Source of the DNA: Azolla caroliniana
Lineage: Eukaryota; Plantae; Polypodiophyta
Direction: 5' to 3'
Length of the DNA stretch: 64,000 nt
Assembly: GCA_043228905.1 (NCBI GenBank)
Contig: JBHGNT010000011.1
Coordinates: 12,152,001 to 12,216,000 of the forward strand
Shown: one piece after another, positions 1,269 to 47,276 of the stretch
Layout: each line of letters opens with the position of its first letter
Numbering within the stretch: position 1 is the stretch's first letter
Translations under genes and position numbers: made by a program
Notes under the pieces: model-generated
The model's input: only the letters and a program-made list of their open reading frames with translations
What the model was told of the DNA's origin: nothing
Databases searched by the model: none

Positions 1269-1618
1269 TGTCAAGATTTGAACTCTTGACACGACCATGT
1301 TATAATATAGTATCATGGGTTAACCAATATATCTAATACACAGTTATGTATGTAATTGGTCCTTATTGTTTTGCTAGCATCATGTGCATAGTTGCTCCCT
1401 TGTAGTATTTATACTTGGCACATGCATGCATACCTACATGCTCTATTGTAGATTCACATGCGTGCAACAAGTATGCATGCCATGTAGTATAAATAGAGGA
1501 GTTCACCTTGAAGGAATTCAAGGTGAACAACACCAGTTATGGAGTCTTTTCGTTAATAGTACTCATCCATTTGTCTATCTTCTTTCTTGTCTCTTGAGCT
1601 TATGATCTATCCGTGACA
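1269..1618 (+). repeat. 5' LTR of the gypsy element (350 bp)
   Basis: TGTCA...TGACA termini, TATAAATA at 1488-1495. Differs from the 3' LTR by 4 substitutions and one 3-nt indel. Confidence 0.96.
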
Positions 1619-1668
1619 GTTTATTCACCTTCCCATCCTCATAGCTCTCCCTCTCATAAGCCATAGCT

Positions 1669-2700
1669 ATGTCCGACTCAACTAGTGAGTTAGGCCAAAT
1701 AATGGTAGCCTTACAACAACTCCAACTTGAAAATGAAGCTCTTCGAAATTCTTTACAAGAACTTCAAGTTGGTGCCTCCCTATCCTCACAACCCCCGAAG
1801 CCTAGTCTCCCACAACAACCTAGCCTAGAGCCTGATCTTCTACCAACATCTAGCCTAGCTTCGTCACATTTTCTTGAGCCTAAGGTTAGCCTCCCAGAAA
1901 AATTTGATGGAACGAGGTCGCGTTTCCGAGGGTCCATCAACCAAGTTCGACTTATCATTCGGCTACAACCTCAACATTATGGAGATGGTCTTCGACAAGT
2001 CGGCCTTGTGAGCACCCTTCTCTCCGGTCCGCCCCAAGCTTGGTTTGCACCATTGGTAGAAACCTCTTCACCTCTATTGGAGAACTTTCCCGCCTTCCTT
2101 GCCGAGTTAGAGGCCACATTTGGAGAGACGGACCGACGACGCACAGCTCTTAACAAGATTTATGCACTTGAACAAGGTTTGCATGCAGCTTCAGTCTATG
2201 CTTAAGAATTTCGACAACTAGCATGCGACGTCAATTGGGATGATCAAGCTTTAGTTGATCACTTTCGGCGCGGCCTTCGAAGCAATGTCAAGAATCTTCT
2301 CTTAAACTTTCCGGAGCCCACCTCGTTATCCCAAGCGATTTCACAAGTAGTCCATTGTGACAATCGTCTATTCGAATTTCGTCAGGAAGAGCGCCGAACT
2401 TGGGTTCCACCTCATTCACTTCCACGCCACGGCCCGGTCATACAACCCCAACCATCCCCCCCACCGACTGCGTCACACTCCCCTACTTTGGTAGATGCTC
2501 CTGTCCCCATGGAAATTGATCAAACCCGATTTCGGCCATTGACTGATGTCGAACGACAATTTCGGCGGGCTAATGGCTTGTGCATGTATTGTGGCGCCTC
2601 TGGTCATGTCGTTCGCCATTGTCCTAGGAGTAATCGCCCACAATTCCATCGAGCTAATGGACCCCACCATCTGGAAAACGACATCGTTCAGTTGCAGTAG
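1669..2700 (+). pseudogene. gag with CCHC zinc knuckle and a premature stop at 2203-2205
   Basis: LPEKFDG retrotransposon gag motif, PVPMEID motif and CMYCGASGHVVRHC. ORFs 1669-2205 and 2488-2700 share one frame. Confidence 0.9.
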
Positions 2701-2748
2701 GAGCCATGCAACTGGACATCTCCCCTCGCCGGACCATCAGGTTTCACA

Positions 2749-5700
2749 TTGGAGGTATGGCTTTCATTTAACTCTAGTTCCATTCAGTTTGTTGCTTTAC
2801 TTGATTCTGGGGCATCTTCTTGCTTCATCGACATCGTGTTTGCCCAAGCACATGGTGTACCTGTCGTTGGCCTCTCAAAACCCATTCTCATTGAAGCCAT
2901 CGACGGGTGCGTCCTCTCGTCATGTGCAATTACTCAAGCTACAATCCCATTAGGGCTTTGTGTGGGCTCACACCAGGAGGAGCTCACCTTTTACCTCATC
3001 GCATCTCCTCAACATCTGATCTTCTTAGGACTAACGTGGTTGGAGGCACACAATCCAATAGTGGATTGGTGCAACCGCTCGATCACATTTAGCAAGCCAG
3101 GATGCTCGTGCAAAAGTATGATGGTAAATTCAGTTTCCCATCCTTCGGAGAAGGTCGATTCCGATTTGACTACCCCATCATCGGTCCAGGATGGGTTTGT
3201 TGGTGGCGCCGTTTCTAACACACTCCATGTTATTCCCGACAAATACCAACACTTCTCCGATGTATTTGAAAAATGTAATGTTGATCGTTTGCCTGAACAC
3301 CGGCTCTACGACTGTCCGATTGATCTTCAAGAAGGTGCGTGTCCACCCTTTGGTCCTCTATATGCGTTGTCTGCACCAGAGTTGAAGGCCCTTCGTGTGT
3401 ATCTCGATGAGAACCTCGAGAAAGGATTTATTCAACCTTCTAAGTCACCAGCCAGGGCCCCCATTTTATTTGTGAAGAAGAAGGATGGCTCTCTACGCTT
3501 ATTCGTCGACTACCGAGGTCTCAACAAACTCATTGTGCGCAACCGCTATCCGCTACCTCTAATCCCCGAACTCCTTGATCGGCTCCGAGTTGCGCATGTC
3601 TTCTCCAAAGTTGATCTGCGTGGAGCGTATAATCTAGTTCACATCAAGCCGGGGGATGAATGGAAAACCGCATTTCGAACACAGTATGGGCATTTCGAAT
3701 ACAAGGTAATGCCTTTTGGTCTTACTAACGATCCAACAGTTTTTCAACATATGATGAACGATATATTCCGGGAATATCTTGATCATTTTGTTGTCATTTA
3801 CCTTGATGATATTCTCATTTTCTCGCCAAACATGGAGGAGCACACTCGCCAAGTCCGATTAGTTCTTGCCAAACTTCGCGAGCATGGTCTTTATGCCAAA
3901 GGCAAGAAATGCGAGTTCGACCGTACCTCGATCGAATTTCTGGGCTACATCATCTCGCCCACTAGCATCACCATGGATATGAAGAATGTCTCTGTCATTC
4001 AGGCCTGGGTGACTCCAAAGCGACTTAAAGATGTGCAATCCTTCCTCGGCTTCGCGAATTTTTACCGTCGCTTCATCAAGGGGTTTTCCACCCTAGCACA
4101 ACCTCTTATCACTCTCACTCGTAAAGGCACTCCATTTTTATGGACCTCGGAGGCGCAAACTGCGTTCGACTCACTCAAACACGCATTCATCACTGCCCCG
4201 GTGCTGCTACATGCCGACCCCACAAAACCCTTCCAAGTCGAAACCAATGCCTCTGACTTCGCCATTGGTGCCATCTTATCCCAGGCAGACGACACCAACC
4301 TAATGCACCCAGTGGCTTACTACTCCCGGAAATTCACGGCATCCGAAATCAATTATCCCATATACGACAAGGAGCTTGCTGCTATCATTGCTGCCTTTGA
4401 AGAATGGCGACCCTACTTGGCCGGCGCACAACATCGTCTCCAAGTAGTGACTGATCATAAAAATTTAGTTTATTTTTCCATCACTCGTACTTTGAATCGA
4501 AGGTATGTCCGTTGGTTGACATTTCTCGCCGACTACGATTTTGAGATCGTATTTCGACCTGGTGACCAACATGGGAAGGCCGATGCCCTTTCTCGTCAAG
4601 CTGACCTTGCACTCCGCCCTAGGGATGCTGCTTATGCTCAACAATCTAGAAGTTTGTTGAAACCCGACCAATTGCATCTTTTTGCCACTTGTATGTTGCA
4701 GGATGATTCATTACTCCAACAGATCACTGATGCATCCAAGACCGATGCGTTCGCCAACGAGATTCGAGATAGTCTACAAAACCCCTCCAAGGCGACCAAA
4801 AGGAAGGATCTTGACACCTTCACCATACACGAGGGTTTGTTGTTCCGAGATCATGTCTTATATGTCCCAGAGGGCCCATGTCGCACCCGGGTGTTGCGGG
4901 AATGCCACGATGACCCACTTGCAGGTCATTTCGGGGTCGCGAAAACCCTCGAGCTAATCTCTCGGGGGTATTGGTGGCCACAACCATGGAAGTTGGTCAA
5001 AGAATACATAAAGAGTTGTGAGGTTTGTGCTCGCTCCAAAGTCATTCATCATCGGCCATACGGCTTACTACAGCCGCTTCCATGTCCTCGTCGTCCCTGG
5101 GCCTCTATCTCTATGGACCTGATAACTGATCTACCCTTGGTCAATAGCTATGACTCAGTGTTGGTCGTTGTCAATTGGTTTACGAAGATGGCTCACTTCA
5201 CTCCATGCTCCAAAACCATTTCTGGAGAAGGAATGGTGCATCTACTACTCAACAATGTGGTACGCTTGCATGGACTCCCCGATGATGTCATCTCCGATCG
5301 CGGACCCCAGTTTGTCTCTCACTTCTAGCAGCGCCTGCTACAAAATTTAGGCATCTCTGTCAAGTTGTCATCTGCTTATCACCCCCAAACTGACGGGCAA
5401 ACGGAGCGTGTCAACCAAATCCTTGAGCAGTATCTTCGGTGCTCTGTTAGTTACCAACAAGATGATTGGGTCAACTACTTTCGCTCGCGGAATTTGCCTA
5501 CAATAATTCTCTCCATGCATCGACTGGCGTCACTCCCTTCTTTGCCAACTATGGTTTACATCCTCGCTACAACATTTCCCTTCCTACCACTTCCGTGAAC
5601 CCTTCGGCGGAGGATCGTGCTCGTATTTTGGAAGAACTACATCATGATTTATCCTTGGAGCTTAGTCTTGCTAGTGAACGATACAAGCAGCAAGTTGATC

Positions 5701-6190
5701 GCCATCGATCTGCCACTCCACACTTTGTCGTTGGAGACATGGTCTGGTTGTTACGTTGACACATCTCTACTACTCGTCCATGTGCGAAACTTGATTACAA
5801 GAAGTTGGGACCATTCCGTATCATCAAGTGCATCAATCTTGTCGCCTTCCGGCTCGCCCTTCCATCCCACTTCTGGATTCATGATGTTTTTCATGTCTCC
5901 CTCCTCGAACCCCATTATGCTTCACAACTCCCAAGACGTCAGGCCCCTCCACCACCACCTGTGCAATTGACGACAGGGGACGAATACGAGATCGACCAAA
6001 TCCTTGACTCGCGTTGGCACCGTTGACACTTGCAATACCTTGTCCTATGGAAGGGTTACCCCATGTCTGAGGCCACGTGGGAACCATCGGAAAATTTACA
6101 AAATGCCCCAAAGGTCGTCCAAGATTTTCATCACCGATATCCCCACAAACCAGTGGCCGGTTTGGGAAGGCGGTGTCGGAGGGGGGATAA
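2749..6190 (+). pseudogene. pol: aspartic protease, RT, RNase H, integrase and chromodomain, with several stops and frameshifts after 5328
   Basis: ALLDSGA, YLDDILI, ETNASDFAIGAIL, HHCC zinc motif (HDDPLAGH...CEVC), [23 protein letters not shown] motif, and chromodomain EYEIDQILDSR...YLVLWKGYPMSEATWEP at about 5980-6145. Confidence 0.95.
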
Positions 6191-6543
6191 TGTCAAGATT
6201 CGAACTCTTGACACGACCATGTTATAATATAGTATCATGGGTTAACCAATATATCTAATACACAGTTATGTATGTAATTGGTCCTTATTGTTTTGCTAGC
6301 ATCATGACATGCATAGTTGCTCCCTTGTAGTATTTACACTTGGCACATGCATGCATACCTACATGCTCTATTGTAGATTCACATGCGTGCAACAAGTATG
6401 CATGCCATGTAGTATAAATAAAGGAGTTCACCTTGAAGGAATTCAAGGTGAACAACACCAGTTATGGAGTCTTTTCGTTAATAGTACTCATCCATTTGTC
6501 TATCTTCTTTCTTGTCTCTTGAGCTTACGATCTATCCGTGACA
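6191..6543 (+). repeat. 3' LTR of the gypsy element (353 bp)
   Basis: Direct repeat of 1269-1618, followed by TSD TATAT. Confidence 0.96.
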
Positions 6544-8746: not shown

Positions 8747-8749
<3 letters not shown>

Positions 8750-8803
<54 letters not shown>

Positions 8804-8816
8804 CTATCTCTCTCTC
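8750..8816. repeat. (CT)n microsatellite
   Basis: Direct reading. Similar tracts at about 8497-8537, 12784-12866, 12958-13008 and 21233-21279. Confidence 0.95.
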
Positions 8817-29600: not shown

Positions 29601-32169
29601 ATTACATATATACACCAAATTTGCCCCATGAGACAATTGATTGCAATAATGGGATGTGTGCCCAATCATTGAAAATAAAATGAAATAAAAATTAGAAGAT
29701 AAATAAAAGAGTTTTAGTGTGTTACAAAATTGTATGCGATATAACATGTTCTATAAATAAATGACTATCTAAGATAGAATCATATCTTGAAATGCATATT
29801 TAGAGGAAGGGGAGAGATCTAATTTATTACACTTAAGATTCCTCTCTCTTCATATATTCAACACTTGGTTGTTTCATGGCATGACGCGGTGTGATGTCGT
29901 GTGAGAAGATTCTTCCTACCGGCTTGTGGATCTCATTGTGTACATTCCCTTTATATATAAATGGTGCACAAAGATCAAGGCAAGAGAATGCTTGAGGAGG
30001 CAAATGCTCGAAGGAGGCAAACGTTCCTGGGAGGCAAACACTCAAAGGGGGCAAACACTCAAAGGAGCAAATGCTCAACTTCCATCACTTCCCTTCTCTC
30101 TTAAATGAATATTTAGGATCGATTAGAACATGGGTTTAGGCTTAATACACTTGATTAATACAAGTACATGATATGAAGACTAAAATGACCTCATGTTAAG
30201 ACCTAAATGATAAATTACACACAAAAAATATTTTATAAAGTAGGGTGTACAAAATCATCAAACTGATTACAAAGGTTAATAACGAGAAGTTGTTACAATG
30301 AATGATTACAAGAGAAATAGGCAAGGTAAGTTAGTTGCAAGGACCCAAACTATGTGGTCTTCAACGAGGCCCTACTTGTCACGGATACACCAAGCACGGA
30401 CTAGGACGAAGCGCAGATGATGGGGCTATGAGCTACGGATGAACTTGGAGCTAGATGTGACAATGCTAGGAACTCTAGATGTTGTGAACGACACGAGGGC
30501 ATGAAGATAGAAATAAAGATCAAGGAGATAAAGATGAGGCGAAACGAGAATACTAGATTGATGTGTCAATGACTGGTGTTGAATCCTTTGAAAGGGAAGA
30601 AGGAGGTTACAAGTATTTATACATGTTCCGAGATTGAATATCTCTAGAATATACTCGAGAAATATCTCTAAAATATACTCGTCGAGAATATGCCGTACAA
30701 TATTTCTAGAATATACTATTGACTAGAATATTCTGATTTTGAAATGTATTATATGTTAGACTATAGAATACTAAACCATTATATACAAATGCATGCTCAT
30801 ATCAAAATGGTTGAGCATGACATATTGTAGTTGTGAGGTTGCAGGTTCAATCCTCACTAACTACATATTTAATAGATTCGTTGTGTCGTGACATTAGCCT
30901 CCCCTTTAGGATCGCCTTTTCGAAAGCGTGGTGTAGGGGTGGACGGGAATTGGAACATGAACAACAACATGCATGAGCGACCATGTCGGTCCTCGCCAGG
31001 ATTCGGAACACGAACAATAGCTGGAGTGAGCGAGTATGTGCGGTCCTCGCCGGAGATTGGAACACGAATACCAACGGGCGTGAGTGATCATGTGTGGTCC
31101 TCACAGAGAACACGAACACCAACGAGCATGAGAGACCATGTTGGTCCTCGCCGATAGTTGGAACACAAACACCAACGAGCGTGAACGACCATGCGGCCCT
31201 CATTGAGAACTGGAATACGAACGGACGTGAGCGACCATGTGCGGTCCTCATCGAAAACACGAAAGGACATGAGCGACCATGCGGCCCTCACCCAGAACTG
31301 AACACGAACGGGCGTGAGAGATCATGAGGCCCTCACCGAGAACTGGAACACGAACGGACGTGAGTGACCATGCGACCCTCCCGAGAACTAGAACAACAAC
31401 GGGCGTAGGAGCACAACTAAAGGGGTCGACTTGACTTCTTCTATTATGAGAGGGTAAATAGTCAAGGTTGACCCAAGACACGACACAAACCGTAGTGCTA
31501 GTGAGAAACCCACACGATCCCCACTAGGAAAGTGAGTAATTGTGATCCCCACCGAAACTAGAAGGTGAGCGATTGAAATCGGTCCTCACCAATAGAAAGT
31601 GGCGCGAGACTTGAACTATAACAAAAATGCAGTACAAGTGAGCAATGATCCGATCCCCACCAGGAAAGTGATGATGGGAACACACACTCCCGATGAACAA
31701 CGCTCGGCCACAACCGAGCCTAGGATAAAACACAGAAAACGGATAATGAACGCATGACACAGTGAAGAGAAGGGTACACAGGATGTTAACGTGGAAAACC
31801 CAAACTAGGGAAAAAACCACGGCAGCCCACAGACTGCAAACTATCACTATATTAGAATGTACAATAGTAGAGCATCGAGGCAACGACCTCGAGCTTGCTA
31901 TCTTCGCCACAGGCGGTGGTTACAACAGAGGCAACGACCTCTTCTTCTCTCTCTCTCACTGTACTCTGTTATGCGCTCTAATCTTGCGCCAACAAGAATG
32001 ACAACAACATACTACAGTTCTCAGTTTGCCCTAAGTTATATTTATACTAATATGACTTTTCGGCTATTTACAAATATAGCCCCGATGGACTCTCAGAAAA
32101 CATATTTACAAATATGTCCCTTCATCCGGTGAGCACTTCTCGCCGGGCCTTCACCATCCAACTCTTGCC

Positions 32170-32390
32170 GGGTATTCGTCATCCGGTTCTCACCGGGTCT
32201 TCCGTGGTTGGGTACTCGTCATCCAGTTCTCACCGGGTCTTCCGTAGCCGGGTACTCGTCATCCGGTTTTCACCGGGTCTTCCGTGGTTGGGTACTCCTC
32301 ATCCGGTTCTCACCGGGTCTTCCGTTTCCGGGTACTCCTCATCCGGTTCTCATTGGGTCTTCCATTGCCGGGTACTCCACATACGGTTTT
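32170..32390. repeat. 40-bp tandem array inside the copia LTR; also at about 37045-37225 with one fewer unit
   Basis: Unit GGGTACTCGTCATCCGGTTCTCACCGGGTCTTCCGTNGNN. LTR lengths of 789 and 749 bp differ by one unit. Confidence 0.9.
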
Positions 32391-32470
32391 GGCCTCGACC
32401 GAGTTTGCTCATCAATACTGTTCTTCTCACTTCCCATCCGGAGGGACCTGTTTCCTAACAAACTCCCCCT

Positions 32471-35400
32471 TCACTCCGGCATGGGATGTCTTACTAGTCC
32501 GACCCGCTTCCGACATGCATCCTGCTTGTCGGGTATCAGTACTTTGGTCAACATATCTGACCCGTTCTCAGCCGTGTGGATCTTCGTCAGCGTGAACTCC
32601 TGGTCATCTACTCTTTCCCGGATCCAGTGATACCTTCGCTGGATATGCTTCGTCCGGGAATGGTAGGCCACATTCTTAGCAAGGTGGATGAAACTTTGAC
32701 TATCGCAATAGAGTCGGTATTCATCTTGCCGGATACCGAGCTCTCCGATGAAGTCCTTCATCCATAATATTTCCTTGCTGGCTTCCACAACCGCCATGTA
32801 CTCCGCCTCCGTGGTTGACAACGCAACTGTCTTCTGAAGCCTCGACTGTCACGAAACAACTCCCCCTGCATATGTCATTACATACCCGGATGTAGACCGA
32901 ATGGTATCCACATCAGCCGACATGTCCGAATCGGTAAAACCGTCAAGTTAAGGTTTTCCGGAGCCGAATCGAAGACACATATTTGAAGTGCCCTTCAGGT
33001 ACCAGAGTATCCATTTAACCGCGTTCCAGTGCTCCTTGCCGGGATTGCTCATAAACCGGCTCACCACTCCGACTGCGTATCCTATATCTGGTCGGGTATA
33101 CACCATTGCGTACATTAAGCTCCCGAAGGCTGAGGCATATGGAACCTTCATCATATTAGCCTTCTCAGCTTTCTTCTTCGGGCTTTGCTTACCGGATAAT
33201 CTACAGTTTGCCGGGAGTGTCGATCCGACCGGTTTCGCTTCTAACATGTTGAACCGTTGAAGCACCTTTGTCACGTATTTCTCCTGTGACAGCCACATTT
33301 GCTTCGTTGGCCGGTTCCAGATGATATGCATCCCCAACATCTATCTTGCCGGACCCAAGTCTTTCATTGAGAAGGTCCAGTTGAGAGCCTTCTTCAGCAT
33401 CCGTATTTTGGCTTGGTCCCGTCTGACGATCAATATGTCGTCCACGTACAGAAGGAGTATCAGGAAGTCGCCTCCTTCGAACTTCTTCACAAACACACAG
33501 TGATCGGCCTACGTCTTGTGGTACCCTTGATCGGTCATGAAGGAGTCGAACTTCCAGTACCATTGTCGGGGAGCCTGCTTCAGTCCGTACATGCTCTTCT
33601 TCACCCGGCAAACCAATTGCTCCTTCCCTTTCTCCACGAATCCTTCCGGTTTTTGCATGTAGATCTCCTCTTCGAGGTCACTGTGAAGGAATGTCATCTT
33701 CACGTCCAACTGCTCTACCTCGAGGTCCATGCTTGCCGCTATACTCAACACCGTCCGGATGGAGGTCATCTTTACTACCGGGGCAAATATCTCTTCGAAG
33801 TCCACTCCCTTCTTCTGTTGGAACCCCTTCACCACGATCCTAGCTTTGTATCTCGGGGGGTTGCCGGCATCTCCCGGTTTCAACTTGTACACCCACTTGT
33901 TTCGGAGTGCCCGCTTTCCTTTCGGCAACTCCACCAATTCGTACGTATGGTTCTCATGCAGTGAATCCATCTCACCCTGCATGGCACTTAACCATTTTCG
34001 GTTGTGGGTGTCATCCTTCGCTTCTTCGAAGCTTTTTGGCTCCCCCTCATCGGTTAGCAACACATGCTCTGCATCCGGAAATCTCCGGGGGGCCCTTCTC
34101 TCTCTGAGAGGATATCTCCGTCTTTGGGCTTCGGTAACCGGCTCCTCCATTTGGTCTTCATCCGAATCCGATTCGGAGTCTTGGCCGGTTCCGGTTTCAG
34201 CTTCCTCTACTTCTTCTTCTGCCGGTTCGGTATCCTCACCGTAACCGGCTGGTTCCTCAAGTGCAAACCGGTCTCTTGCCGGTTGGGTCTGCTCATCGTA
34301 GAATCGATCCTTACTGGTCAACTCGGATTTCATTATCTTCTTCTCAGACTCCCAGTCGGTGAGCGTCTTGTCCTCCATGAAGATAATATCTCGACTCCGG
34401 AATACCTTCTTGTCGACCAGGTCCCACACTCGGTAGCCGAACTCATCGTCGTTGTAACCGAGGAATATGCATGGTCGGGTCTTCGGATCTAGTTTTCCTC
34501 TCCGGTCCTTAGCTACATGCACATACGCAAGACACCTGAATACCTTCAGATGCCGGTAGGACACTTCCTTACAGGTCCAGACTCTCTGTGGCGTGTCTCT
34601 GTCCAAGGGTACTGAGGGTGATCTGTTTATCACATATGTCGCCGTCGACAGTGCCTCAACCCAAAACTTCTTAGGTAGTTTTGCATGCGCCAACATACTC
34701 CGAACCCTCTCCATTATGGTCCGGTTCATCCTCTCGACTAGCCCGTTTACTTTCGGCGTCTTCGGCACGGTAAATTCGAGCCAGATTCCCTTCGAGTGAC
34801 AATACTCCTCGAACTGCCCCCGGTATTCACCTCCGTTATCTGCTCGAACCGCCTTCAGCTTCTGGCCGGTTTCTCTTTCCACTCTCGCGTGGAGCTCTTT
34901 GAAGACGGATAACACCTGATCCTTCGTCTTCAACGGTGTGGCCCACAGCTTCCGGTTGTGATCATCTATGAACGTCACAAAGTACTGCGATCCGGCATGT
35001 GACTTCGTGTCCACTTGACATACATCAGTATGCACCAACTCCAGTGGTGCATTACGTCTCATCGGTGGCCTCGATCGGAAGGAGGTTCGGTTTTGTTTAC
35101 TGGCCAGACAATCAGTGCACTTCTCCAAGTGCACGTTCTTCACTGGAATGAAGTTGTCGTCTGCAAGCCTCTTCATCCCCTTCTCGCTCATGTGACACAA
35201 CCTCTTGTGCCACAGCTCACCGGCAGTGTTGGATGCAACGTTCACGTCTTCCGGGCATAACCGGGCATTCATTAGGTACAACGTGTTTACCTTCCGGGCC
35301 CGAGCCACAATCAGGCTCCCTTTGCTGAACTTCATAACACTGTTCCGGATGCTACCCGTGTAGCCTTCATCATCTAGCCGACTGGCTGATAACAGGTTCA

Positions 35401-36516
35401 GACAAACCTCCGGAACGTGTTGGACATCCTTCAGCAGCAACTTGCATCCGGTTGGTGTTGTCAACCACACGTCTCCTATGCCGAAAATCGGCATGTACCT
35501 TCATTCCCCATCCGGACACAGCCGTGATCACCGGCTGAGTAGGATGAGAAGCATTTCCGGTCTGGGGTAAGGTGGAACGACGCTCCGGAGTCGACCACCC
35601 AGGTCATCTCGTCGCCGGCAAGGTTTAGCTCACTCTCCTGAGTGATGAGCATGAACTCTTCTTCACTTGCCGCGATTGCCGTCGTTCCCTTCTGGTCCGG
35701 CCCCCTCCGGTCTTTACCGTTCCGGTTCGGTGTCCACTTCGAATCGGTACCGTTGGTTTCCTTGTCTTTTCAGAAGTGCTGACAGTTCTTCTGGAAGTTT
35801 CCCGGCTTGCCGCAATAGAAGCAAGTAGGCCTCCCCCTTGACTTTGACCGTGTCCCCGACTTTTCCCGGTTCTGGGGGCTACGGTTCCTTTGTCTTCCGC
35901 GTTCCAATTCGGTAAGGAGCGCTTTGGAGTCAGAGCTCGTATCCTTATCTTTCCGACGCGCCTCCTCATCTAGCAAGCTCGACTTCACTCTTGCTAGGGA
36001 TAACTGTTTCCCTTCCGGCCCAGCGTTGCCCAAAGTGACAACCAACGTCTCCCAACTATCTGGGAGGGAACCGAGTAGGAGTAGTGCTAGTACCTCATCG
36101 GCGAGAGGTACTTCCAATGATGTTGCCTGGTGTATCAGCCCCTGGAAGGCTTTCATGTGCTCTGCCATGCTGGAGCCATCTTGGTACCGTAGTCTTACTA
36201 GCTTCCGGAATACCGAAACCTGGTTAACGACATTTTTGTTCTAAAACATAATGTTGATCTTCTCCCAGAGCTCATGAGCCTTGCTCTCTTCATTGAAGTT
36301 GTTGTATAGGCTCATGTCGATGAAGCACCGTATGTACGCCGTTGTCTTCATGTGCATCACCTCCCATATCGTGGCGTCGATTTTGTCTGGTCTCTTGTCC
36401 CCGAACTGAACTGACAACCAATGATCTTTAACCACGAGCATGTCCCTCATCTTCGACTTCCACACGGAATAGTTGGAGCCGGTGAGCTTGAACATGCCTC
36501 CCAACGATTCGTCCAT
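32471..36516 (-). pseudogene. copia gag-pol polyprotein (gag, PR, IN, RT, RH) with stops and frameshifts
   Basis: MDESLGGMFKL start, CFYCGKPGNFQKNC, WVVDSGASFH, LWHKRLCHMS, HTDVC, RADNGGEY, YKARIVVKG, YGLKQAPRQW, STTEAEY, SRTKHI. Confidence 0.95.
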
Positions 36517-39339
36517 TTTCTGAGTCGTTTCGCTCTGATACCACTTTGACAGGAACACACACTCCCGATGAACAACGCTCGGTCACATTCGAGCCTAGGA
36601 TAAAACATAGAAAACGGATAATGAACGCACGACACAGTGAAGAGAAGGGTACACAGGATGTTAACGTGGAAAACCCAAACTAGGGAAAAAACCACGGCAG
36701 CCCACAGACTGCAAACTATCACTATATTAGAATGTACAATAGTAGAGCACCGAGGCAACGACCTCGAGCTTGCTATCTTCGCCACAGGCGGCGGTTACAA
36801 CAGAGGCAACGACCTCTTCTTCTCTCTCTCTCACTGTACTCTGTTATGCGCTCTAATCTTGCGCCAACAAGAATGACAACAACATACTACAATTCTCAGT
36901 TTGCCCTAAGTCATATTTATACTAATATGACTTTTCGGCTATTTACAAATATAGCCCCGATGGACTCTCAGAAAACATATTTACAAATATGTCCCTTCAT
37001 CCGGTGAGCACTTCTCGCCGGGCCTTCACCATCCAACTCTTGTCGGGTACTCGTCATCCGGTTCTCGCCGGGTCTTCCGTGGCTGGGTACTCGTCATCCG
37101 GTTCTCACCGGGTCTTCCGTAGTCGGGTACTCCTCATCCGGTTCTCACCGGGTCTTCCGTTGCCGAGTACTCCTCATCCGGTTCTCACCGGGTCTTCCGT
37201 TGTTGAGTACTCCACATCCGGTTTCGGCCTTGGCCGAGTTTGCTCATCAATACTGTTCTTCTCACTTCCCATCCGGAGGGACCTGTTTCCTAACAAGTGA
37301 GTGGTTGTGACCCCCACCGGAACTGGGAAGGTGAGCGATCGAAAGCACTCCTTACAAAAACCATGATGCAAAATGATACCTAAAAATGATGACAAGTAGT
37401 GTTGATGATGACGATGGTTGGGCGAAGAGGTGCTGAAAATGATGACGTCGAAGACAAGGATGTTGATGACGGTAACTCCGAAACCAAGGATGGTGATGAT
37501 GGTAACTCTAGAAGCAAAGGCGATGACGAAGACGGGCAATGCTCCCAGTTGGAAGGGATTCAAATTGTCACGGACACACTAATCGCGGACTGGGATGGAG
37601 CACGGATGACGAGGCTACGAGTGATAAGTGGAACCGGAAGTGATGAGGCTAGGAACTCTAGAAGCTATGAGCAACAAGACTATTAACATAGGAAGCTAGG
37701 GTTAACTAGAGAGCATGCAAACAAATATGAAGATCAAGGAGACAATATGGCATGAAAGGAGAATGACAATGGGGCTACGAGCGTGGAACTCAAGACGCTG
37801 GGAAGGACACAATAGAATGAAGACAATGATAAAGATGAAGTAGACAAGATGGGAAGAAACAAGAACACTAGATTGATGTGTCAATGACTGGTGTTGAATC
37901 CCTTGAAAGGGACCAAGGAGGTTACAAGTATTTATACATGTTCCGAGATTGAATATCTCTAGAATATACTCGTCTAGAATATGTCGTACAATATTTCTAG
38001 AATATACTACTAACTAGAAAATTTTGATTCTAAAATGTATTATATGCTAGACTATAGAATACTAAATTATTATATACAAATACATGCTCATATCAAAATG
38101 GTTGTGCATGACATCTTGTAGTTGTGAGGTTGTAGGTTCAATCTTCACTAACTACGTATTTAACAGATTCGTTGTGTCGTGACATTGCCTACTATTAATG
38201 GCTATGCCACCTTCATTGTTGAGGTGGTGTCCTTGTGCCACTTTGAGCCTCCTTCCTTGTTACAATGAATGAATACAAGAGAAATAGGCAAGGTAAGTTA
38301 GTTGCAAGGACCCAAGCTATGTGGTCTTCGACGAGGCCTCGCCTACCATTAATGGTTATGCCACCTTTTGTTTAGGTAGTGTCCTTGTGCCACTTTGAAC
38401 CTCCTTCCTTGTTTGACAAGCTAACTCCACATTTTTTACTCTTTCACCCCACCTCTCCAAATGAGATGAACCCAAAACACTCTCAACCAAACCCTAAACT
38501 CTCCGGTAGGAAAAATAAGAAGAAGACACCTAAACTCTCATAAGGACAATCAGAAATAAACCCTAAAATTCCAAGTAAGTGGAGAAGAAGAAGATGTGAA
38601 GAAAAAGAACCACCAAAAGAAACCTAACGATGCACTCTTGAAACCCACAATGAGCGACCCAAAATAAGCCCTCTTCTAAAAAAGAAGCGTCTATTTTCAG
38701 CAATAAATATTATCTTCCCTTTTTTCTTCAAAATGATAAAAAGGAATAATTCCTTAATGCAAATTGGCAGAGATTCAGACTCTACATGGCGAACCACACT
38801 TCTGGATGGATGTGTAGGATAGAGGGCTCATAACACTTGCCTACCTTGTGCTTCGGGAATTGTGTAAGCCTAGGGTTCTACTATTGTCACATAAGAGAAG
38901 GGAAGGAACCTAAATTGGCAAGCATACCTCAAGTCACATTTGCAGCATTCAAGAAGTTGGGGGATCCAAGTACTAAGAGACGAGTTGTTTGAGTGGAAAT
39001 TTCTTTTCAAATTCATGTACAATAGGATTTCAAGAAAGTTATTTTTTCTTGCAAGGTGATATTACTAATAAGGGGTAGGAGGAGTTCTTTCTACCTTCAA
39101 GCATTATTAGTATGGAAACCATCACTTAATAGAAAGCGTTGTACTTCTTTGCAAAAAGAGTTATTTGTATCTTCTAGGTTTTTATGGTGCCCTAAAAATG
39201 GGAGATTGCATTCTCAATTTATTCAAACGTTTTGTTTGGAGGATAAAGAGGTGGTAGATATAGTTGAGGCTTGATTTAAGAGAATATTGGAGTTTGTTGA
39301 AGCATGGTAAAGATCCTGGACGAGAATGCTTAGATCCTT

Positions 39340-39901
39340 TAAGATTCTCTTCAGCCAAACAACTTCACATGTCGTGACAACCACGGGCCCCTGTATTCGG
39401 TTTCTGTGTTGGACAATGCAAATGTCAAATGCTTCTTATTGCTCCATGATATGGCTCCAATGCCGAGGGAGAAGACGAATCCCAATGTTGATTGTCTGTC
39501 AGCTTTGTAGCTGAGTACAACAAGAGGATTCAAGGCAACGACCTTGACCTCTTCTTCGTCGAGTGATGGCTACAGAGTTACACCCACTCACACACACTCT
39601 CTCACACAGTTACATAGGCAGCGACCTCGAGAGTAACTATACAACTATATGAGCTACACTAATGATTTCCCTACACCTTCATAAAGTTTTCCCTAGTTGT
39701 ATTTATACTTATACAACTTTCTGGCTATTTACAAATATAGCCCACATGGGGCACATTTAGACTATTTAAAAATATAGTCTCCCGAATTGGTTACATAATC
39801 AATTTTCAATTTTCGATTTCAGCCTCAACTGAATTACCCATTGATTCCATCTGATTCGGTTCATTCTCTTCTTCCTATCCGGAGGGACCCGTTTCCCAAC
39901 A
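39340..39901 (-). mobile_element. Truncated copia remnant: RNase H fragment plus a partial LTR related to the 31672-37295 family
   Basis: DRQSTLGFVFSLGIGAISWSNKKH..ALSNTETEY. Shares GGCTATTTACAAATATAGCCC and ATCCGGAGGGACC.GTTTCC.AACA with the copia LTR. Confidence 0.75.
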
Positions 39902-41235
39902 AATTGTAGGGATCAAACATCATGACTTAAACAGGCTGAGAGGATACTAGAGAAGTATGAAACTAATAATGTGATAATGCATATTGTGGACGAGCTCCAA
40001 TATTGGTTTACTATATTGAGCTTGACCAAACCCACTATATGGTATAATGTATCGCTCCAGTGCTCATATTGTGATTGCCAAGACCTTGTGAGTAAATGTA
40101 CGCATCTACTCGGCATCCGAATGATTATTGAGAGGCAGATGCCACATCTATGTGGGTCTTTGCCTTTTATAGATCATGCGGCCCATATACGCAATGACCA
40201 TTTCACAAAAATAGAAGTGGAGACAAACCCTAGTGCATTAGAAATGGAGAATGGGAGTCAGAATTACAAATGACCAAGACAATTATTGAATGTCTCAAGC
40301 AAGGGTTACGATCCCTCAACGGTGCAAAAGTTTTGGCATGTATGGTGTTCATTTCATAAATGAGACAGATGGTGGTGTATCATGTTGGTGCACCAAAACC
40401 AACCAATGAAGAAGACGGTGGATCCATAAGGTGGAAGCAAGCAATTGGTGTGAAGAGAGGAGCATCAATTGACATTTCACACGATCTTAACAACAGCTCC
40501 CCAAACACTTCCAAAACACACACCTGGAAAATGTAAAAAGGTGCAAGTCGAGGTAGGAGGTGGTTGCCAATATGTGTGACAGAGAAGATTCGATGCTTGC
40601 ATTGCAATGCCTTGACCTTTAGATCAAGGGACTCGAATGTTGATTGTTGTAAGACTTATGGCCATATCTTGCCATTATCTCCAAATGAGCCATAAACATT
40701 GCATGCGTGGTTTTGCGAACCATTGCAATTGGGTTTACAAATCAAGTATGTTTAAAGTGGATTTATGTTAAAAGTATGTTTTAAGTTTTATGTTTGAAGT
40801 ATGTTATAACTTGATTTATGTTTTATGTTTTAAGTTGAAGTATGTTATACGATGATTATTTGTTGTAAAGACTAAGTTTTAAGTATGGTGAAGTTCATTG
40901 ATTTTGGAAATTTTAATACAATTGGATTTTGTGACTGTTTGCTCTGTTATTGTAAGTTTTTAAGTTTCAAAATCATACTTATTTGAAGATTTTGGTGGAA
41001 AGGATACATTTGGTTGGGCAACCTGCAACGGGCGGAGTTGGGTGACCAAATGTGGTTGGGCGATCGACGACTCAAAGTTGGGCGACCTCTAACAGATTTT
41101 TTTGCGCGCGTTCTTTTTTTATCCAAATCGGACCTTGCAGATTACACGCACGCCATGCTTCAAGCGACCTGCACCGTCCGTGGCCGCGATTTCATCGCCA
41201 ACCCTATTTATGATTTGGTGTATAATAGACACGAG

Positions 41236-41237
<2 letters not shown>
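39902..41237 (+). mobile_element. Right arm of a Mutator-like element (SWIM zinc-finger remnant, subterminal repeats, TIR)
   Basis: WYNVSLQCSYCDCQDLVSKCTH SWIM motif. Homologous to 51740-53233. Ends AATAGACACGAGCC followed by (AC)n. Confidence 0.8.
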
Positions 41238-41274
<37 letters not shown>

Positions 41275-44049
41275 TACATACATACATGATACATACATAC
41301 ATACATACACATACATACATGATAAAAATAGTAGATCAATCATGGATATATGATGCAATTTTTATTGAGTATATAGAATTGGTGCATAGGAAATGGTGCA
41401 TGGGAAACTAACACTCAAACATCGTGGTGGCCATTGCTTAATGGATGTATTCCTCTAAAGGTTCAACATTTTGTATGTGCTCAACAATTGGTAAGGTCTT
41501 GGAAAGATACCTTATCTTTCTTGGAGTGGACACCATGAAGCAATTGAAAGCTTTGTACTCCATTTCTTCTCTATTGTTGCATTGGCATGGAAAAGGGATG
41601 TTGACATCTTAGTTCAATCATTTATTTTGATTGAGGGTTGTGGAATTGGGGGATGTGGTTAATATTGAATCTCAAAGGTTTTCAAATGTTGAAAATGTTG
41701 AATGATGGTTATGTATTCCCCCAAATATGGATTTATTTGGGAGAAATTACATATATACACCAAATTTGCCCCATGAGACAATTGATTGCAATAATGGGAT
41801 GTGTGCCCAATCATTGAAAATAAAATGAAATAAAAATTAGAAGATAAATAAAAGAGTTTTAGTGTGTTACAAAATTGTATGCGATATAACATGTTCTATA
41901 AATAAATGACTATCTAAGATAGAATCATATCTTGAAATGCATATTTAGAGGAAGGGGAGAGATCTAATTTATTACACTTAAGATTCCTCTCTCTTCATAT
42001 ATTCAACACTTGGTTGTTTCATGGCATGACGCGGTGTGATGTCGTGTGAGAAGATTCTTCCTACCGGCTTGTGGATCTCATTGTGTACATTCCCTTTATA
42101 TATAAATGGTGCACAAAGATCAAGGCAAGAGAATGCTTGAGGAGGCAAATGCTCGAAGGAGGCAAACGTTCCTGGGAGGCAAACACTCAAAGGGGGCAAA
42201 CACTCAAAGGAGCAAATGCTCAACTTCCATCACTTCCCTTCTCTCTTAAATGAATATTTAGGATCGATTAGAACATGGGTTTAGGCTTAATACACTTGAT
42301 TAATACAAGTACATGATATGAAGACTAAAATGACCTCATGTTAAGACCTAAATGATAAATTACACACAAAAAATATTTTATAAAGTAGGGTGTACAAAAT
42401 CATCAAACTGATTACAAAGGTTAATAACGAGAAGTTGTTACAATGAATGATTACAAGAGAAATAGGCAAGGTAAGTTAGTTGCAAGGACCCAAACTATGT
42501 GGTCTTCAACGAGGCCCTACTTGTCACGGATACACCAAGCACGGACTAGGACGAAGCGCAGATGATGGGGCTATGAGCTACGGATGAACTTGGAGCTAGA
42601 TGTGACAATGCTAGGAACTCTAGATGTTGTGAACGACACGAGGGCATGAAGATAGAAATAAAGATCAAGGAGATAAAGATGAGGCGAAACGAGAATACTA
42701 GATTGATGTGTCAATGACTGGTGTTGAATCCTTTGAAAGGGAAGAAGGAGGTTACAAGTATTTATACATGTTCCGAGATTGAATATCTCTAGAATATACT
42801 CGAGAAATATCTCTAAAATATACTCGTCGAGAATATGCCGTACAATATTTCTAGAATATACTATTGACTAGAATATTCTGATTTTGAAATGTATTATATG
42901 TTAGACTATAGAATACTAAACCATTATATACAAATGCATGCTCATATCAAAATGGTTGAGCATGACATATTGTAGTTGTGAGGTTGCAGGTTCAATCCTC
43001 GCTATCTACGTATTTAATAGATTCGTTGCGTCGTGATAGCAGCAGGCATGAGCGACCATGTCGGTCCTCGCCAAGATCCGGAACACGAACAATAGCTGGA
43101 GTGAGCGACCATGTGCGGTCCTCGCCGGAGACTGGAACACGAATACCAACGGGCGTGAGTGACCATGTGTGGTCCTCACAGAGAACACGAACACCAATGG
43201 GCATGAGAGACCATGTCGGTCCTAGCCGATAGTTGGAACACGAACACAAACGGGCGTGAGAGATCATGAGGCCTTCATTGAGAACTGGAACACGAACGGA
43301 TGTGAGCGACCATGCGACCCTCCCAAGAACTAGAACAACAACGGGCGTAGGAGTGCCCCTAAAGGGGTCAACTTGACTTCTTCTATTATGAGAGGGTAAA
43401 TAGTCAGGGTTGACCCAAGACACGACACAAACCATAGTGCTAGTGAGAAACCCACGCGATCCCCACTAGGACAGTGAGTAGTTGTGATACCCACTGAAAC
43501 TAGAAGGTGAGCGATCGAAATCGGTCCTCACCAACAGAAAGTGGCGCGAGACTTGAACTATAATGAAAATGTAGTGCAAGTGAGCAATGATCCGATCCCC
43601 ACCAGGAAAGTGAGTGGTTGTGACCCCCACAAGAACTGGGAAGGTGAGTGATCGAAAGCACTCCTTACAAAAACCATGATGCAAAATGATACCTAAAAAT
43701 GATGACAAGTAGTGTTGATGATGATGATGATGGTTGGGCGAAGAGGTGCTGAAAATGATGACGCCGAAGACAAGGATGTTGATGACGGTAACTTCGGAAG
43801 CAAGGACGGTAACTCTGTGAGAGTGCAGAGACAGCCATGAGGTTTGCCTAGAAGCAGTTGCCTAATTCGGTACATTGATGTATAATTATTGTGCCAGGTA
43901 AATGTATGGCCCACAAAGGAATCCTTCCAGTGGTATTGGTCGTTTGTACCACCCCCTCCCCTTACCCTACTTCGTTTGGTTCCACCACTCGGTCACGACT
44001 TAAGACATGAATGGTCACGAATGATTAGGATTTTGATCTTCCTTCGCTC

Positions 44050-44199
<150 letters not shown>

Positions 44200-44266
44200 C
44201 TAATTCATTTACGTCAATCAATCTTATCGGGGTTTAATCAGTCTCGGTGTGACGGAATTTCTCTGC

Positions 44267-44428
44267 CGAACCTGTCTGCAACAAGCCAAAGTAAAGGCAG
44301 ATGAAGTTCGCATAATTGGACTTGCACAATTGGACAAGGAACAACGAGATCTTGTTGATGCAGCTGATGAAGATCCAAAGAGATTAGAAGACAATAAAAA
44401 CTATACAATTCGTTTTGAGAAACAACGA
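44267..44428 (+). pseudogene. atpF: Plastid ATP synthase subunit b fragment
   Basis: [51 protein letters not shown]. Confidence 0.85.
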
Positions 44429-44552
44429 CTTTGGAGGGTTTTGGTGTTTCTTACACGTTACAAGCGATGCTTACGATCAAATCAGATCATATTCAGGCTC
44501 GTTATAAGGTACCTAGTGCCATCGAGACTGGAAAGCCAGTCCATAAACCGGT
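44429..44552 (+). pseudogene. rpoB: Plastid RNA polymerase beta C-terminal fragment; inverted second copy at 44604-44688
   Basis: [36 protein letters not shown]. Confidence 0.9.
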
Positions 44553-44914
44553 AAATCCGTTCTTATCGACATCTAGTAAACGGTAATCCAAAAAGACCCA
44601 CGTTTTCCAATCACGATGGCACTAGGTACCTTATAACGAGCCTGAATATGATCCGATTTGATCGTAAGCATCTCTTGTAACGTGTAAGGATGAGTATGTG
44701 CTTTTTCTCTGACTGATGCCTCGACGAATTACCTGCTACTAAGTTTTGCTCAAGAACCAGGAAGGAATGTTTTACCAACTACCAAACGTGACACAAAATC
44801 TCTCCGCCAACTTTTTTTCGTCTAGCTTCTCGGTCGGTCGCGTTTTACTTGTTTGTTGCAGATCTGAAATAATTATCGTTTGGGTGGAGACTTGGCAACA
44901 ATCATAGATCTATC

Positions 44915-45142
44915 CGAAGAAGAATTACGAATAACTGGATGAAAAAATGGTTGGTTCTATCACTAGTAGTATCCATTGGTTTTGGTAAAGTGAGTTGTTC
45001 ACCCACCTCAAACGCATATCCGATATTTGCACAACAGAATTATGAGAATCCGCGCGAAGCTACAGGGCGCATTGTATGTGCAAATTGCCACCTAGCAAAG
45101 AAACCGGTAGATGTGGAGGGTCCGCAATCTGTTCTTCCCGAC
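44915..45142 (+). pseudogene. petA: Plastid cytochrome f N-terminal fragment
   Basis: [45 protein letters not shown], including the CxxCH haem motif. Confidence 0.95.
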
Positions 45143-45266
45143 GGAGGGTTTACTGCAAACACTAGCTTGGCTTTCTACTGCCGAGACAATGGGCTACTTC
45201 TTCACATTCACCGCGCAATGCATGCTGTCATCGATAGACAGAGAAATCATGCTATACATTTCCACG
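45143..45266 (+). pseudogene. rbcL: RuBisCO large subunit fragment
   Basis: [40 protein letters not shown]. Confidence 0.95.
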
Positions 45267-45320
45267 GTTTGCGTCGTTATGCTCAATGAATGGAATCAGA
45301 GAAGCTTCGATAGAGAAATG
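45266..45320 (-). pseudogene. rpoB: Plastid rpoB internal fragment
   Basis: [18 protein letters not shown]. Confidence 0.85.
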
Positions 45321-45360
45321 CGTCGTTGGGGGCATCCCCGAAGGGCTGGGGATTTTGTTC
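45320..45360 (-). pseudogene. rps12: Plastid ribosomal protein S12 exon 1 fragment
   Basis: TKSPALRGCPQRR. Confidence 0.8.
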
Positions 45361-45950
45361 CACCGCCCAAAAAAAGCTCGAACGACTTTTGACAAGTGGG
45401 TACAGAACATATATCTTCCGTTTCTTGTTGATGCGAACTGGCAACTCTAGAAGCAAAGGCGATGATGAAGATGGGTGGTGCTCCTAGTTGGAAGGGATTC
45501 AAATTGTCACGGTCACACCAATCGCGAACTGGGACGGAGCATGGATGACGAGGCTACGAGTGATAAGTGGAACCGGAAGTGATGAGGCTAGGAACTCTAG
45601 AAGCTGTGAGCGACAAGACTATGAACATAGGAAGCTAGGGTTAACTAGAGAGCATGCAAACAAATATGAAGATCAGGGAGACAATATGGCATGAAAGGAG
45701 AATGACAATGGGGCTACGAGCGTGGAACTCAAGACGCTGGGAAGGACACAATAGAATGAAGACAATGATAAAGATGAAGAAGAAAAGATGGGGAGAAACA
45801 AGAACACTAGATTGATGTGTCAATGACAGGTGTAGAATCCCTTGAAAGGGACCAAGGAGGTTACAAGTATTTATACATGTTCCGAGATTGAATATCTCTA
45901 GAATATACTCGAGAAATATCTCTAGAATATACTCGTCTAGAATATGTCGT

Positions 45951-47036
45951 CTATGTGGGTCTTTGCCTTTTATAGATCATGCGGCCCATATACGCAATGA
46001 CCATTTCACAAAAATAGAAGTGGAGACAAACCCTAGTGCATTAGATATGGAGGAATGGGAGTCGGAATTACAAATGACCGAGGCAGTTATTGCTCAGGCA
46101 AGGGTTACGATCCCTCAACGGTGCGAAAGTTTTGGCATGTATGGTGTCCATTTCATAGATGAGATAGATGGTGGTGTATCACGTTGGTGCACCGAAACCA
46201 ACCAATGAAGAAGACGGTGGATCCATAAGGTGGAAGCAAGCAATTGGTGTGAAGAGAGGAGCATTAGTTGACATTTCACATGATCTTATTAGCAGCTCCC
46301 CAAACACTTCCAAAACACACACTAGAAAAATGCAAAAAGGTGCAAGTCGAGGTAGGAGGTGGTTGCCAATATGTGTGACAGAGAAGATTCGATGCTTGCA
46401 TTGCAATGCCTTGACCTTTAGATCAAGGGACTCGAATGTTGATTGTTGCAAGACTTGTGGCCACATCTTGCCATCATCTCCAGATGAGCCATAAACATTG
46501 CCTGCGTGGTTTTGCAGACCATTGCAATTGGGTTTACGAATCAAGTATGTTTAAAGTGGATTTATGTTAAAAGTATGTTTTAAGTTTTATGTTTGAAGTA
46601 TGTTATAACTTGATTTATGTTTTATGTTTTAAGTTGAAGTATGTTACATGATGGTTATTTGTTGTAAAGACTAAGTTTTAAGTATGGTGAAGTTCGTTGA
46701 TTTTGGAATTTTTAATACAGTTGGATTTTGTGACTATTTGCTCTGTTATTGTAAGTTTTTAAGTTTCATAATCATACTTATTTGAAGATTTTGGTGGAAA
46801 TGATACATTTGGTTGGGCAACTTGCAACGGGCTGAGTTGGGTGACCAAATGTGGTTGGGCGATCGACGACTCAGAGTTGGGAGACCTCTAAAATATTTTT
46901 TTGCGCGCGTTCTTTTTTTATCCAAATCGGACCTTGCGGATCGCACGCGCGCCATGCTTCAAGCGACCTGCACCGTCTGTGGCCGCGATTCCCTGGCCAA
47001 CCCTATTTATGATTTGGTGTATAATAGACACAAGCC
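45951..47036 (+). mobile_element. Second right arm of the Mutator-like element
   Basis: Paralog of 40148-41237. Ends AATAGACACAAGCC followed by (AC)n. Confidence 0.8.
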
Positions 47037-47276
47037 ACACACACACACACACACATTATACATACACACACACATACATATGTACACACATACACACACA
47101 CACACACACATACATACCGACGTGTCTATTATGACACAAATCATAAAGAGGGTTGGTGAGGGAATCGCGGCCACTGACGGTGCAGGTTGCTTAGAGAAGG
47201 CGCGTGCAATCTGCATCGTCAAATTTCGATAATGAAGAAGGTGCGAAAAATAAAGCTGTGCAGAGGTCGCCCAACC

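What the first reader, a model, noticed from the sequence alone, without database searches (positions are those of the whole stretch)
37553..37936. A second, unrelated, non-coding LTR element has the same self-priming geometry with a different 11-mer
Seen on the minus strand: TATAAATA (37936-37929), exactly 24 nt, then AAGGGATTCAA (37904-37894). After the LTR end plus 2 nt comes TTGAATCCCTT (37563-37553), a perfect 11/11 complement. The same PBS is at 45492-45502. Spacing (TATA+24, LTR+2, 11 nt) and TGTCA...TGACA termini are identical to the gypsy element, although the LTRs are otherwise unalignable and the central bases differ on both sides in compensating fashion. Inference: a non-autonomous, tRNA-independent TRIM/LARD family mobilised by Tcn1-type chromoviruses. 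I do not know of a described plant example, but could not search.
Basis: partly seen in the sequence, partly recalled or inferred. Interest (0 to 1): 0.8.

Follow-up and report, generated by a model that had tools for sequence, protein, structure and literature searches.

The report
Self-priming parasite retrotransposon in a fern
A high-copy, protein-less jumping gene in what is likely a fern carries its own matched primer and primer site, so it likely starts copying itself without a tRNA and borrows enzymes from related full-length elements; the mechanism is known from yeast, but I found no protein-less plant family using it in print.

Summary
The segment is the R-U5-PBS part of the 5' LTR of a ~2.2-kb non-coding LTR element split by a copia. 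The site at 45492 is a segmental duplicate, not independent. All 12 LTRs with this element's primer (GATT type) lead into the same non-coding leader; 31 of 33 with the other primers lead into gag. A second R-U5 stem covaries too. 'Unrelated' is wrong: R start, U3, PPT and a chromodomain relic come from the Tf1/sushi-type (Tcn1-like) chromoviruses beside it. Host is probably a fern, where Tcn1 was reported absent. Extra: U3 holds a covarying antisense copy of the primer. Transcription start, cleavage and mobilisation are untested; no clean TSD was found. The scan noted self-priming mini-elements before in other genomes (one fungal). New variant of a known kind.

The parts
37566..38184 (-). 5' LTR (619 bp, TGTCA...TGACA) of the non-coding element, copy A; U5 lengthened by about 126 nt relative to the 3' LTR
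   Evidence: loose ends of 23-42 contigs per run with low agreement at 37566 mark the LTR edge
37929..37936 (-). TATA box; its first T lies 32 nt before the primer
   Evidence: spacing 24 in 111 of 121 loci
37908..37914 (-). U3 arm predicted to pair with primer nt 2-8 (weak form of the U3/R anti-primer hairpin)
37894..37904 (-). predicted self-primer, first 11 nt of R (AAGGGATTCAA)
37871..37888 (-). R arm of the R-U5 stem
37567..37584 (-). U5 3'-end arm of the R-U5 stem
37553..37563 (-). primer-binding site (TTGAATCCCTT), LTR end +3 to +13
37296..37552 (-). non-coding internal region, 5' part (family leader)
31672..37295 (-). nested Ty1/copia insertion (LTRs 96.1% identical, TSD TCACT, TGG-type PBS); not part of the family
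30908..31671 (-). non-coding internal region, 3' part, with 45-53-bp tandem repeats at 30949-31406
30894..30907 (-). polypurine tract, homologous to the PPT/pol end of the coding elements
30377..30893 (-). 3' LTR (517 bp); U3 92.9% and R-U5 81.6% identical to the 5' LTR; primer copy has one change
45492..45945 (-). copy B: truncated 5' LTR and PBS, from an older segmental duplication
42521..43810 (-). copy B: internal part without PPT, and 3' LTR from a more recent duplication (99.2% to copy A, flank included)
1269..6543 (+). coding Tf1/sushi-type (Tcn1-like) chromovirus copy, broken by stops and frameshifts; primer 1520-1530, PBS 1621-1631, TSD TATAT, LTRs 98.9%; member of the likely helper lineage

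Best explanation
This is the 5' end of a high-copy, non-coding LTR retrotransposon family derived from Tf1/sushi-type (Tcn1-like) chromoviruses, and it likely primes its own reverse transcription Tf1-style while likely borrowing Gag, RT/RNase H and integrase from coding relatives. Shown: the geometry, the primer/PBS and R-U5 covariation across copies, the lack of coding sequence, and the shared U3, PPT and chromodomain relic. Inferred: Pol II starts at the A 32 nt after the first T of TATA; nt 1-11 pair with the PBS next to an R-U5 stem; a helper RNase H cuts after nt 11 and RT extends the 11-mer; the PPT primes the plus strand. Because the primer is supplied in cis, the family could change its four central primer bases (GATT against the helpers' TGAA/CGAA) and still use the helpers' enzymes.
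For: Exact 11/11 match at the expected place. With the PBS located without using its central four bases, 44 of 45 LTRs have central bases complementary to their own primer: TGAA/TTCA 29, GATT/AATC 11, CGAA/TTCG 4, one mismatch; 39 of 40 distinct rows, permutation mean 19.1, maximum 29, 0 of 10,000. Spacing is 24 in 111 of 121 loci although 23-25 was allowed. R-U5 stem: 229 of 248 cells pair in register against 77-144 when slid, with changes on both sides; a typical copy (L010) folds with both stems at z -3.42, 0 of 200 shuffles. 12 of 12 GATT sites lead into the same non-coding leader; 31 of 33 TGAA/CGAA sites lead into gag (26 hits, 5 gag-like ATG). 21 of 23 GATT U3s align to U3s of coding elements; the PPT region is shared; GATT copy L029 keeps 32 codons of the chromo-integrase tail (66%, E 5e-11). 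Hundreds to thousands of contigs per run in six organism labels hold the family. Tcn1 elements are 83% predicted self-priming, with overlapping gag/pol ORFs (PMC6317226 Additional file 5); seven intact relatives here have two overlapping ORFs or a long pol ORF.
Against: The covariation rests on only three primer types, so on few independent events. No TSD-flanked full-length GATT copy was seen: the window copy has no clean TSD and mismatched LTRs, and the contigs were too short. The third 'pretzel' duplex described for Tf1 (3' of the PBS) was not enriched over shuffles. The window copy's long leader does not fold better than shuffles as a whole (z -1.45 and -0.48). No RNA data on the start site. 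Clade Tcn1 itself was not tested with a tree against named references.
Confidence: 0.85

Rival explanations
1. Self-priming is right, but the GATT primer is not private: a coding subfamily with the same GATT primer exists and is the specific parent and helper.
For: L029 has a GATT LTR directly after a piece of chromo-integrase. 4 of the 12 GATT sites had only about 100 nt of downstream DNA.
Against: 0 of 31 gag-leading primer sites carry GATT. GATT elements carry U3s of two different coding TGAA subfamilies (L088/L003 type and L054/L084/L085 type). Listed loose ends beyond the PBS continue into the same leader in four runs (148 rows not shown).
Confidence: 0.2
2. The element is a dead, one-off deletion or recombination product, and the complementarity is a passive leftover.
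For: No clean TSD, LTRs only 92.9%/81.6% identical in U3/R-U5, a nested copia, and the second window copy is a segmental duplicate.
Against: The same primer, PBS, leader, tandem repeats and PPT recur in loci with unrelated 5' flanks (L022, L063, L074) and in many contigs of several organism labels. The primer differs from every coding parent seen at four positions, with the PBS matched. This copy is probably a dead chimera, but the family is not a one-off.
Confidence: 0.05
3. A host tRNA or tRNA fragment primes at this site, and the match to the LTR is incidental.
For: With the family's usual GT spacer the site resembles a tRNA T-arm/B-box in sense orientation (motif recalled, from no call). 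No tRNA set was available for a direct test.
Against: No TGG start; the PBS follows the LTR 11-mer through three sequence types; no tRNA or 5S match in 29500-47000 and no tRNA gene in the window (run with the bacterial code).
Confidence: 0.04
4. The helper is a self-priming Ty1/copia of the TAR lineage, not a chromovirus.
For: TAR elements are 89% predicted self-priming.
Against: U3, R start, LTR end, PPT and the coding relic all match the chromovirus relatives; the only copia at the locus has a TGG-type PBS.
Confidence: 0.02

Closest known systems
Tf1/Tf2 of Schizosaccharomyces pombe and the Tf1/sushi group (PMC7175516, bioRxiv 10.1101/2022.12.06.519325, PMC4600332; passages)
   Same: First 11 nt of the predicted RNA complementary to a PBS just after the 5' LTR; a second stem next to the PBS; chromo-integrase in the coding relatives.
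   Different: This family encodes nothing; only two of the three 'pretzel' duplexes were detected; the host is a plant.
Chromovirus clade Tcn1 of mosses and club-mosses (PMC6317226 passages and Additional file 5; PMC2864245 passages and section 7)
   Same: Predicted self-priming, overlapping gag and pol ORFs, 5-bp TSD, chromodomain with aromatic residues in the coding neighbour.
   Different: Those surveys cover coding elements; PMC2864245 found no Tcn1-like clones in 26 ferns and horsetails and saw no primer site in SM-Tcn1. Here the host is probably a fern and a non-coding family with its own primer is present.
Plant TRIMs/LARDs, Cassandra, Helenus, Ajax (PMC13570524, PMC10886601; passages)
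   Same: Non-coding, LTR-PBS-internal-PPT-LTR layout, tandem arrangements, dependence on a coding partner.
   Different: The PBS types in those passages are all tRNA-derived; no small-RNA-derived sequence was found in this LTR; size ~2.2 kb.
TAR lineage Ty1/copia (Houba, Osr-1; PMC6317226 passages)
   Same: Predicted self-priming in plants.
   Different: Copia superfamily; no shared sequence shown with this family.

Membership tests
Tf1-type self-priming element | 11-nt LTR sequence complementary to a PBS 0-5 nt after the 5' LTR | tested here: met
Tf1-type self-priming element | Primer and PBS covary across copies | tested here: met
   44 of 45; three primer types only
Tf1-type self-priming element | Stem between U5 3' end and LTR sequence after the primer | tested here: met
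   229 of 248 cells against 77-144 slid
Tf1-type self-priming element | Third duplex between sequence 3' of the PBS and the LTR | tested here: inconclusive
   No enrichment over shuffles in most of 38 distinct rows; the primary structure paper was not held
Tf1-type self-priming element | Primer is the very 5' end of the RNA and is cut after nt 11 | not testable with these tools
   Only contigs were available
Non-autonomous LTR retrotransposon (TRIM in the wide sense of PMC13570524) | Two LTRs, PBS, PPT, no coding domains | tested here: met
   no hit of 120 Pol-type proteins or the window's Gag/Pol pieces in the internal region
Non-autonomous LTR retrotransposon (TRIM in the wide sense of PMC13570524) | Multi-copy family with conserved internal layout | tested here: met
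Non-autonomous LTR retrotransposon (TRIM in the wide sense of PMC13570524) | Target site duplication around full-length copies | tested here: inconclusive
   Window copy has none that is clean; no fetched GATT copy had both flanks
Classical TRIM (<1 kb) or LARD (>4 kb) | Length class | tested here: not met
   About 2.2 kb without the copia; internal regions of 1.3-1.5 kb in L010, L013, L026, L050
Cassandra/Helenus/Ajax | 5S rRNA- or tRNA-derived sequence in the LTR | tested here: not met
Chromovirus, Tf1/sushi group (coding neighbour and relatives) | gag, PR-RT-RH-IN order, C-terminal chromodomain | tested here: met
   Pfam order; chromodomain-like tail read directly; PF00385 on the closest relatives
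Clade Tcn1 (coding neighbour and relatives) | RT-RH-IN tree groups with named Tcn1 elements | not tested
   No named Tcn1 reference came back; named hits among the best 120 were amphibian, Ustilago and Tf2, none from seed plants
Clade Tcn1 (coding neighbour and relatives) | Self-primer, overlapping gag/pol ORFs, 5-bp TSD | tested here: met

The most novel reading that the evidence does not exclude
A fern lineage of Tf1-type chromoviruses uses a three-part primer system: primer, PBS and an antisense copy in U3 that folds over the 3' R copy of the primer so that only the 5' copy can prime. Its non-coding parasite has evolved a private primer, weakened that U3 hairpin, and swaps U3 promoters with several helper subfamilies, which would show that the helper RNase H reads the shape of the primer duplex and not its central sequence.
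Probability: 0.35. Interest if true: 0.7.

Novelty: new variant of a known kind. Interest (0 to 1): 0.5.

Why it matters
Self-priming in plants has so far been predicted from single-element complementarity; here it has family-level covariation on two stems. A protein-less family that brings its own primer is invisible to TRIM searches that need a tRNA-type PBS, so such families may be missed widely in non-seed plants. The natural GATT/TGAA/CGAA series gives a ready test of what a Tf1-type RT/RNase H recognises in trans. It also places Tcn1-like chromoviruses in a fern, which bears on the proposed fungus-to-plant transfer.

Tried and rejected
No RNA holder listed: nothing on expression. One search was meant to count variants in primer and PBS; it listed none there, but it also missed a known polymorphism next to the PBS, because changes near the ends of short laid pieces are not counted, so I do not use it as evidence of invariance; one search showed only 40 of 227 variant rows. 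Third duplex 3' of the PBS: not enriched. Whole-leader folding of the window copy: not better than shuffles. TSD search in GATT loci: none testable. Cluster look-up for named Tcn1 relatives: no names; no tree was built. Rfam and ARAGORN: no tRNA/5S source. Rejected: 45492 as an independent insertion; 'unrelated' LTR. Lin and Levin 1998 and Atwood-Moore 2006 were not held; Additional file 1 of PMC6317226 (per-element PBS) was too large to read, and supplements of the bioRxiv preprint were not seen; both may list similar primers or U3 hairpins. Repbase and subscription journals were not searchable.

Full report
Observation. On the minus strand TATAAATA (37936-37929) is followed by 24 nt and AAGGGATTCAA (37904-37894). 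The LTR ends in TGACA at 37566; after 2 nt comes TTGAATCCCTT (37563-37553), the exact complement. The 11-mer occurs three times in the window, at 37553, 37894 and 45492, against 0.09 expected; 0 of 100 shuffles reach three. The gypsy at 1269-6543 has the same spacing, with a 10/11 match in this copy.

Anatomy. The finding is the R-U5-PBS part of a 619-bp 5' LTR (38184-37566). A non-coding internal region of about 1.04 kb follows, split by a copia (37295-31672, LTRs 96.1%, TSD TCACT), with 45-53-bp tandem repeats, a PPT and a 517-bp 3' LTR (30893-30377): about 2.2 kb in all. Pfam found nothing in the five internal ORFs tested, among 20 window ORFs scanned, and neither 120 Pol-type proteins nor the window's Gag/Pol pieces hit the internal region. 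This copy is not pristine: its LTRs are 92.9% identical in U3 and 81.6% in R-U5 with 128 gap columns, and there is no clean TSD. It is probably a recombinant of two family members. Copy B (45945-42521) shares the 3' LTR and 1.19 kb of flank at 99.2%, and its 5' part is 93-96% identical, as is the neighbouring repeat block; it arose by segmental duplications and is not independent evidence.

Family. No genome was held. Contigs of public runs showed a very large family: 2338, 1887, 2518 and 911 contigs were laid in four runs, with 23-42 loose ends of low agreement (0.37-0.40) at the LTR edge, as expected for many insertion sites. One search added three more organism labels, in which the listed loose ends past the PBS continue into the same leader. 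Of the other ten, L001 is a true element, and the five others with flanks that I checked had no hit to these elements.

Covariation. I located the PBS from the LTR end and its outer seven bases only. 45 of 126 LTRs (121 loci plus 5 window LTRs) had one; the other 81 were 3' or solo LTRs, truncated, chance matches, or failed the context filter (five of these, L011, L042, L031, L077, L087, had a 10/11 site with matching centre). The central four bases were complementary in 44 of 45: TGAA/TTCA 29, GATT/AATC 11, CGAA/TTCG 4, and one mismatch (L074). Among 40 distinct rows 39 matched; permutation mean 19.1, maximum 29, 0 of 10,000. Only three types exist, so this is a handful of evolutionary events, and the outer bases were fixed by my search, so their constancy is no evidence. 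A second stem pairs R (from 5 nt after the primer) with the U5 end: 229 of 248 cells in register against 77-144 when slid by 1-3 nt, with changes on both sides; in the GATT family it runs 11-12 bp or more. L010 folds into both stems at z -3.42; the window copy shows both stems but is not better than shuffles overall. A third duplex 3' of the PBS, described for Tf1 (bioRxiv 10.1101/2022.12.06.519325, passages), was not enriched.

Relation to the coding elements. All 12 GATT sites lead into one non-coding leader (eight with at least 785 nt downstream, four with about 100 nt); of 33 TGAA/CGAA sites 26 lead into a gag hit, 5 into a gag-like ATG and 2 are unclear. The two groups are related. They share the R start, the LTR end, the usual GT spacer (majority base at 37565) and the PPT region. 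21 of 23 GATT U3s align to coding-element U3s, of two different subfamilies (L088/L003 at 69-81%; L054/L084/L085, which fits the window copy over 73-120 nt that include a short repeat). L029 keeps 32 codons of the chromo-integrase tail before its PPT. L025 and L058 carry the tandem-repeat interior with a TGAA LTR, so non-coding relatives with the helpers' primer exist too. The coding elements have PR-RT-RH-IN, a chromodomain-like tail with aromatic residues, overlapping gag/pol frames and a 5-bp TSD; named hits among the best 120 were amphibian, Ustilago and Tf2. This fits the Tf1/sushi group, whose plant clade is Tcn1; I did not test the clade with a tree.

Host. An RRP45 exon at 54378-54596 is 89% and 86% identical to Ceratopteris and Adiantum proteins, at most 80% to named angiosperm proteins and 74% to Sphagnum (73 residues only), so the host is probably a fern.

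An added feature. The 24-nt spacer holds an antisense copy of the primer. In coding families it forms a 12-bp hairpin across the U3/R border: 35 of 43 distinct TGAA and 5 of 5 CGAA spacers beat at least 95 of 100 shuffles, and the arm changes with the primer in CGAA. On 34 of 87 TGAA/CGAA LTRs, picked by me as distinct, 90.7% of cells pair and 14 change on both sides (0 of 500 shuffles; 25-49% when slid; structure taken from these sequences). In GATT it is a weaker 7-8 bp stem (6 of 15). Since U3 is transcribed only at the 3' end, it would hide the 3' copy of the primer; this role is inference, and a DNA-level or 3'-end-processing role is not excluded.

Mechanism. Inferred from Tf1 (PMC7175516, PMC5341516, PMC4600332; passages): the RNA starts at the primer (TATA at -32 and a C/A start fit plant promoters; recalled), nt 1-11 pair with the PBS, RNase H cuts after nt 11, RT extends, the PPT primes the plus strand, and a helper integrase inserts. 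Copying of the primer into the new PBS would let primer and PBS drift together (inference).

Literature. [quoted passage not shown] PMC2864245 (passages and section 7): no Tcn1-like clones in 26 ferns and horsetails by PCR. PMC13570524, PMC10886601 and PMC6934838 (passages): non-autonomous families with tRNA-type PBSs, or none assigned. PMC3601003 (passages): no U3/R anti-primer hairpin in what I saw. Searches found no paper describing a self-priming non-autonomous family; 56, 63 and 77 none reporting Tcn1 in ferns (listing only for PMC13477047); others gave the papers above. The library lacks most subscription journals and Repbase. Earlier notes of this scan report self-priming mini-elements in other genomes, unchecked by me.

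Verdict. Real and well supported: a non-autonomous, likely self-priming derivative of Tcn1-like chromoviruses. Known mechanism, new combination (non-coding, private primer, fern host, U3 anti-primer arm). Interest 0.5.

Noticed in passing
window 1496-1530 (+) and TGAA/CGAA loci such as L035, L040, L053: 12-bp U3/R hairpin in which U3 carries an antisense copy of the self-primer; it covaries with the primer and is weaker in non-coding families.
   Followed up: yes
window 1269-6543 (+); L036, L047, L062, L065: Tf1/sushi-type chromoviruses in a probable fern, several subfamilies, some with unbroken long ORFs in collapsed contigs; Tcn1 was reported absent from ferns.
   Followed up: partly
L025, L058, L090: Non-coding relatives that carry the TGAA primer of the coding elements; possibly a sister non-autonomous family.
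   Followed up: partly
L010, L013, L089, L102, L111: GATT LTRs with a PPT before and a PBS after: tandem arrays (L013 at low coverage) or collapsed assemblies.
   Followed up: partly
window 38186-38418 and 30290-30376 (-): The element sits in a short tandem repeat of about 160 bp with TG...CA ends, possibly another small LTR; AGTAG lies on both sides of the insertion but offset by 4 nt.
   Followed up: partly
window 44873-45286 (+): Plastid-derived mosaic (petA joined to rbcL) inside the 1.6-kb insert of copy B, next to an 85-bp inverted repeat at 44450-44688.
   Followed up: no
window 39900-41318, 45950-47117, 51739-53314: A 1.2-1.5-kb repeat in three copies (93.5% and 72-74%), with a 113-bp tandem array at 47277-47615.
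   Followed up: no
window 7118-12434 (-): Fragments with DUF4283, zinc knuckle and RT matches, probably a decayed LINE.
   Followed up: no
window 54378-54596 (+): Exon of an exosome RRP45 gene, used to place the host among ferns.
   Followed up: yes
window 37553-37566 (-): With the family's GT spacer the GATT-type PBS resembles a tRNA T-arm/B-box in sense orientation (motif recalled); no A-box or tRNA match was found.
   Followed up: partly
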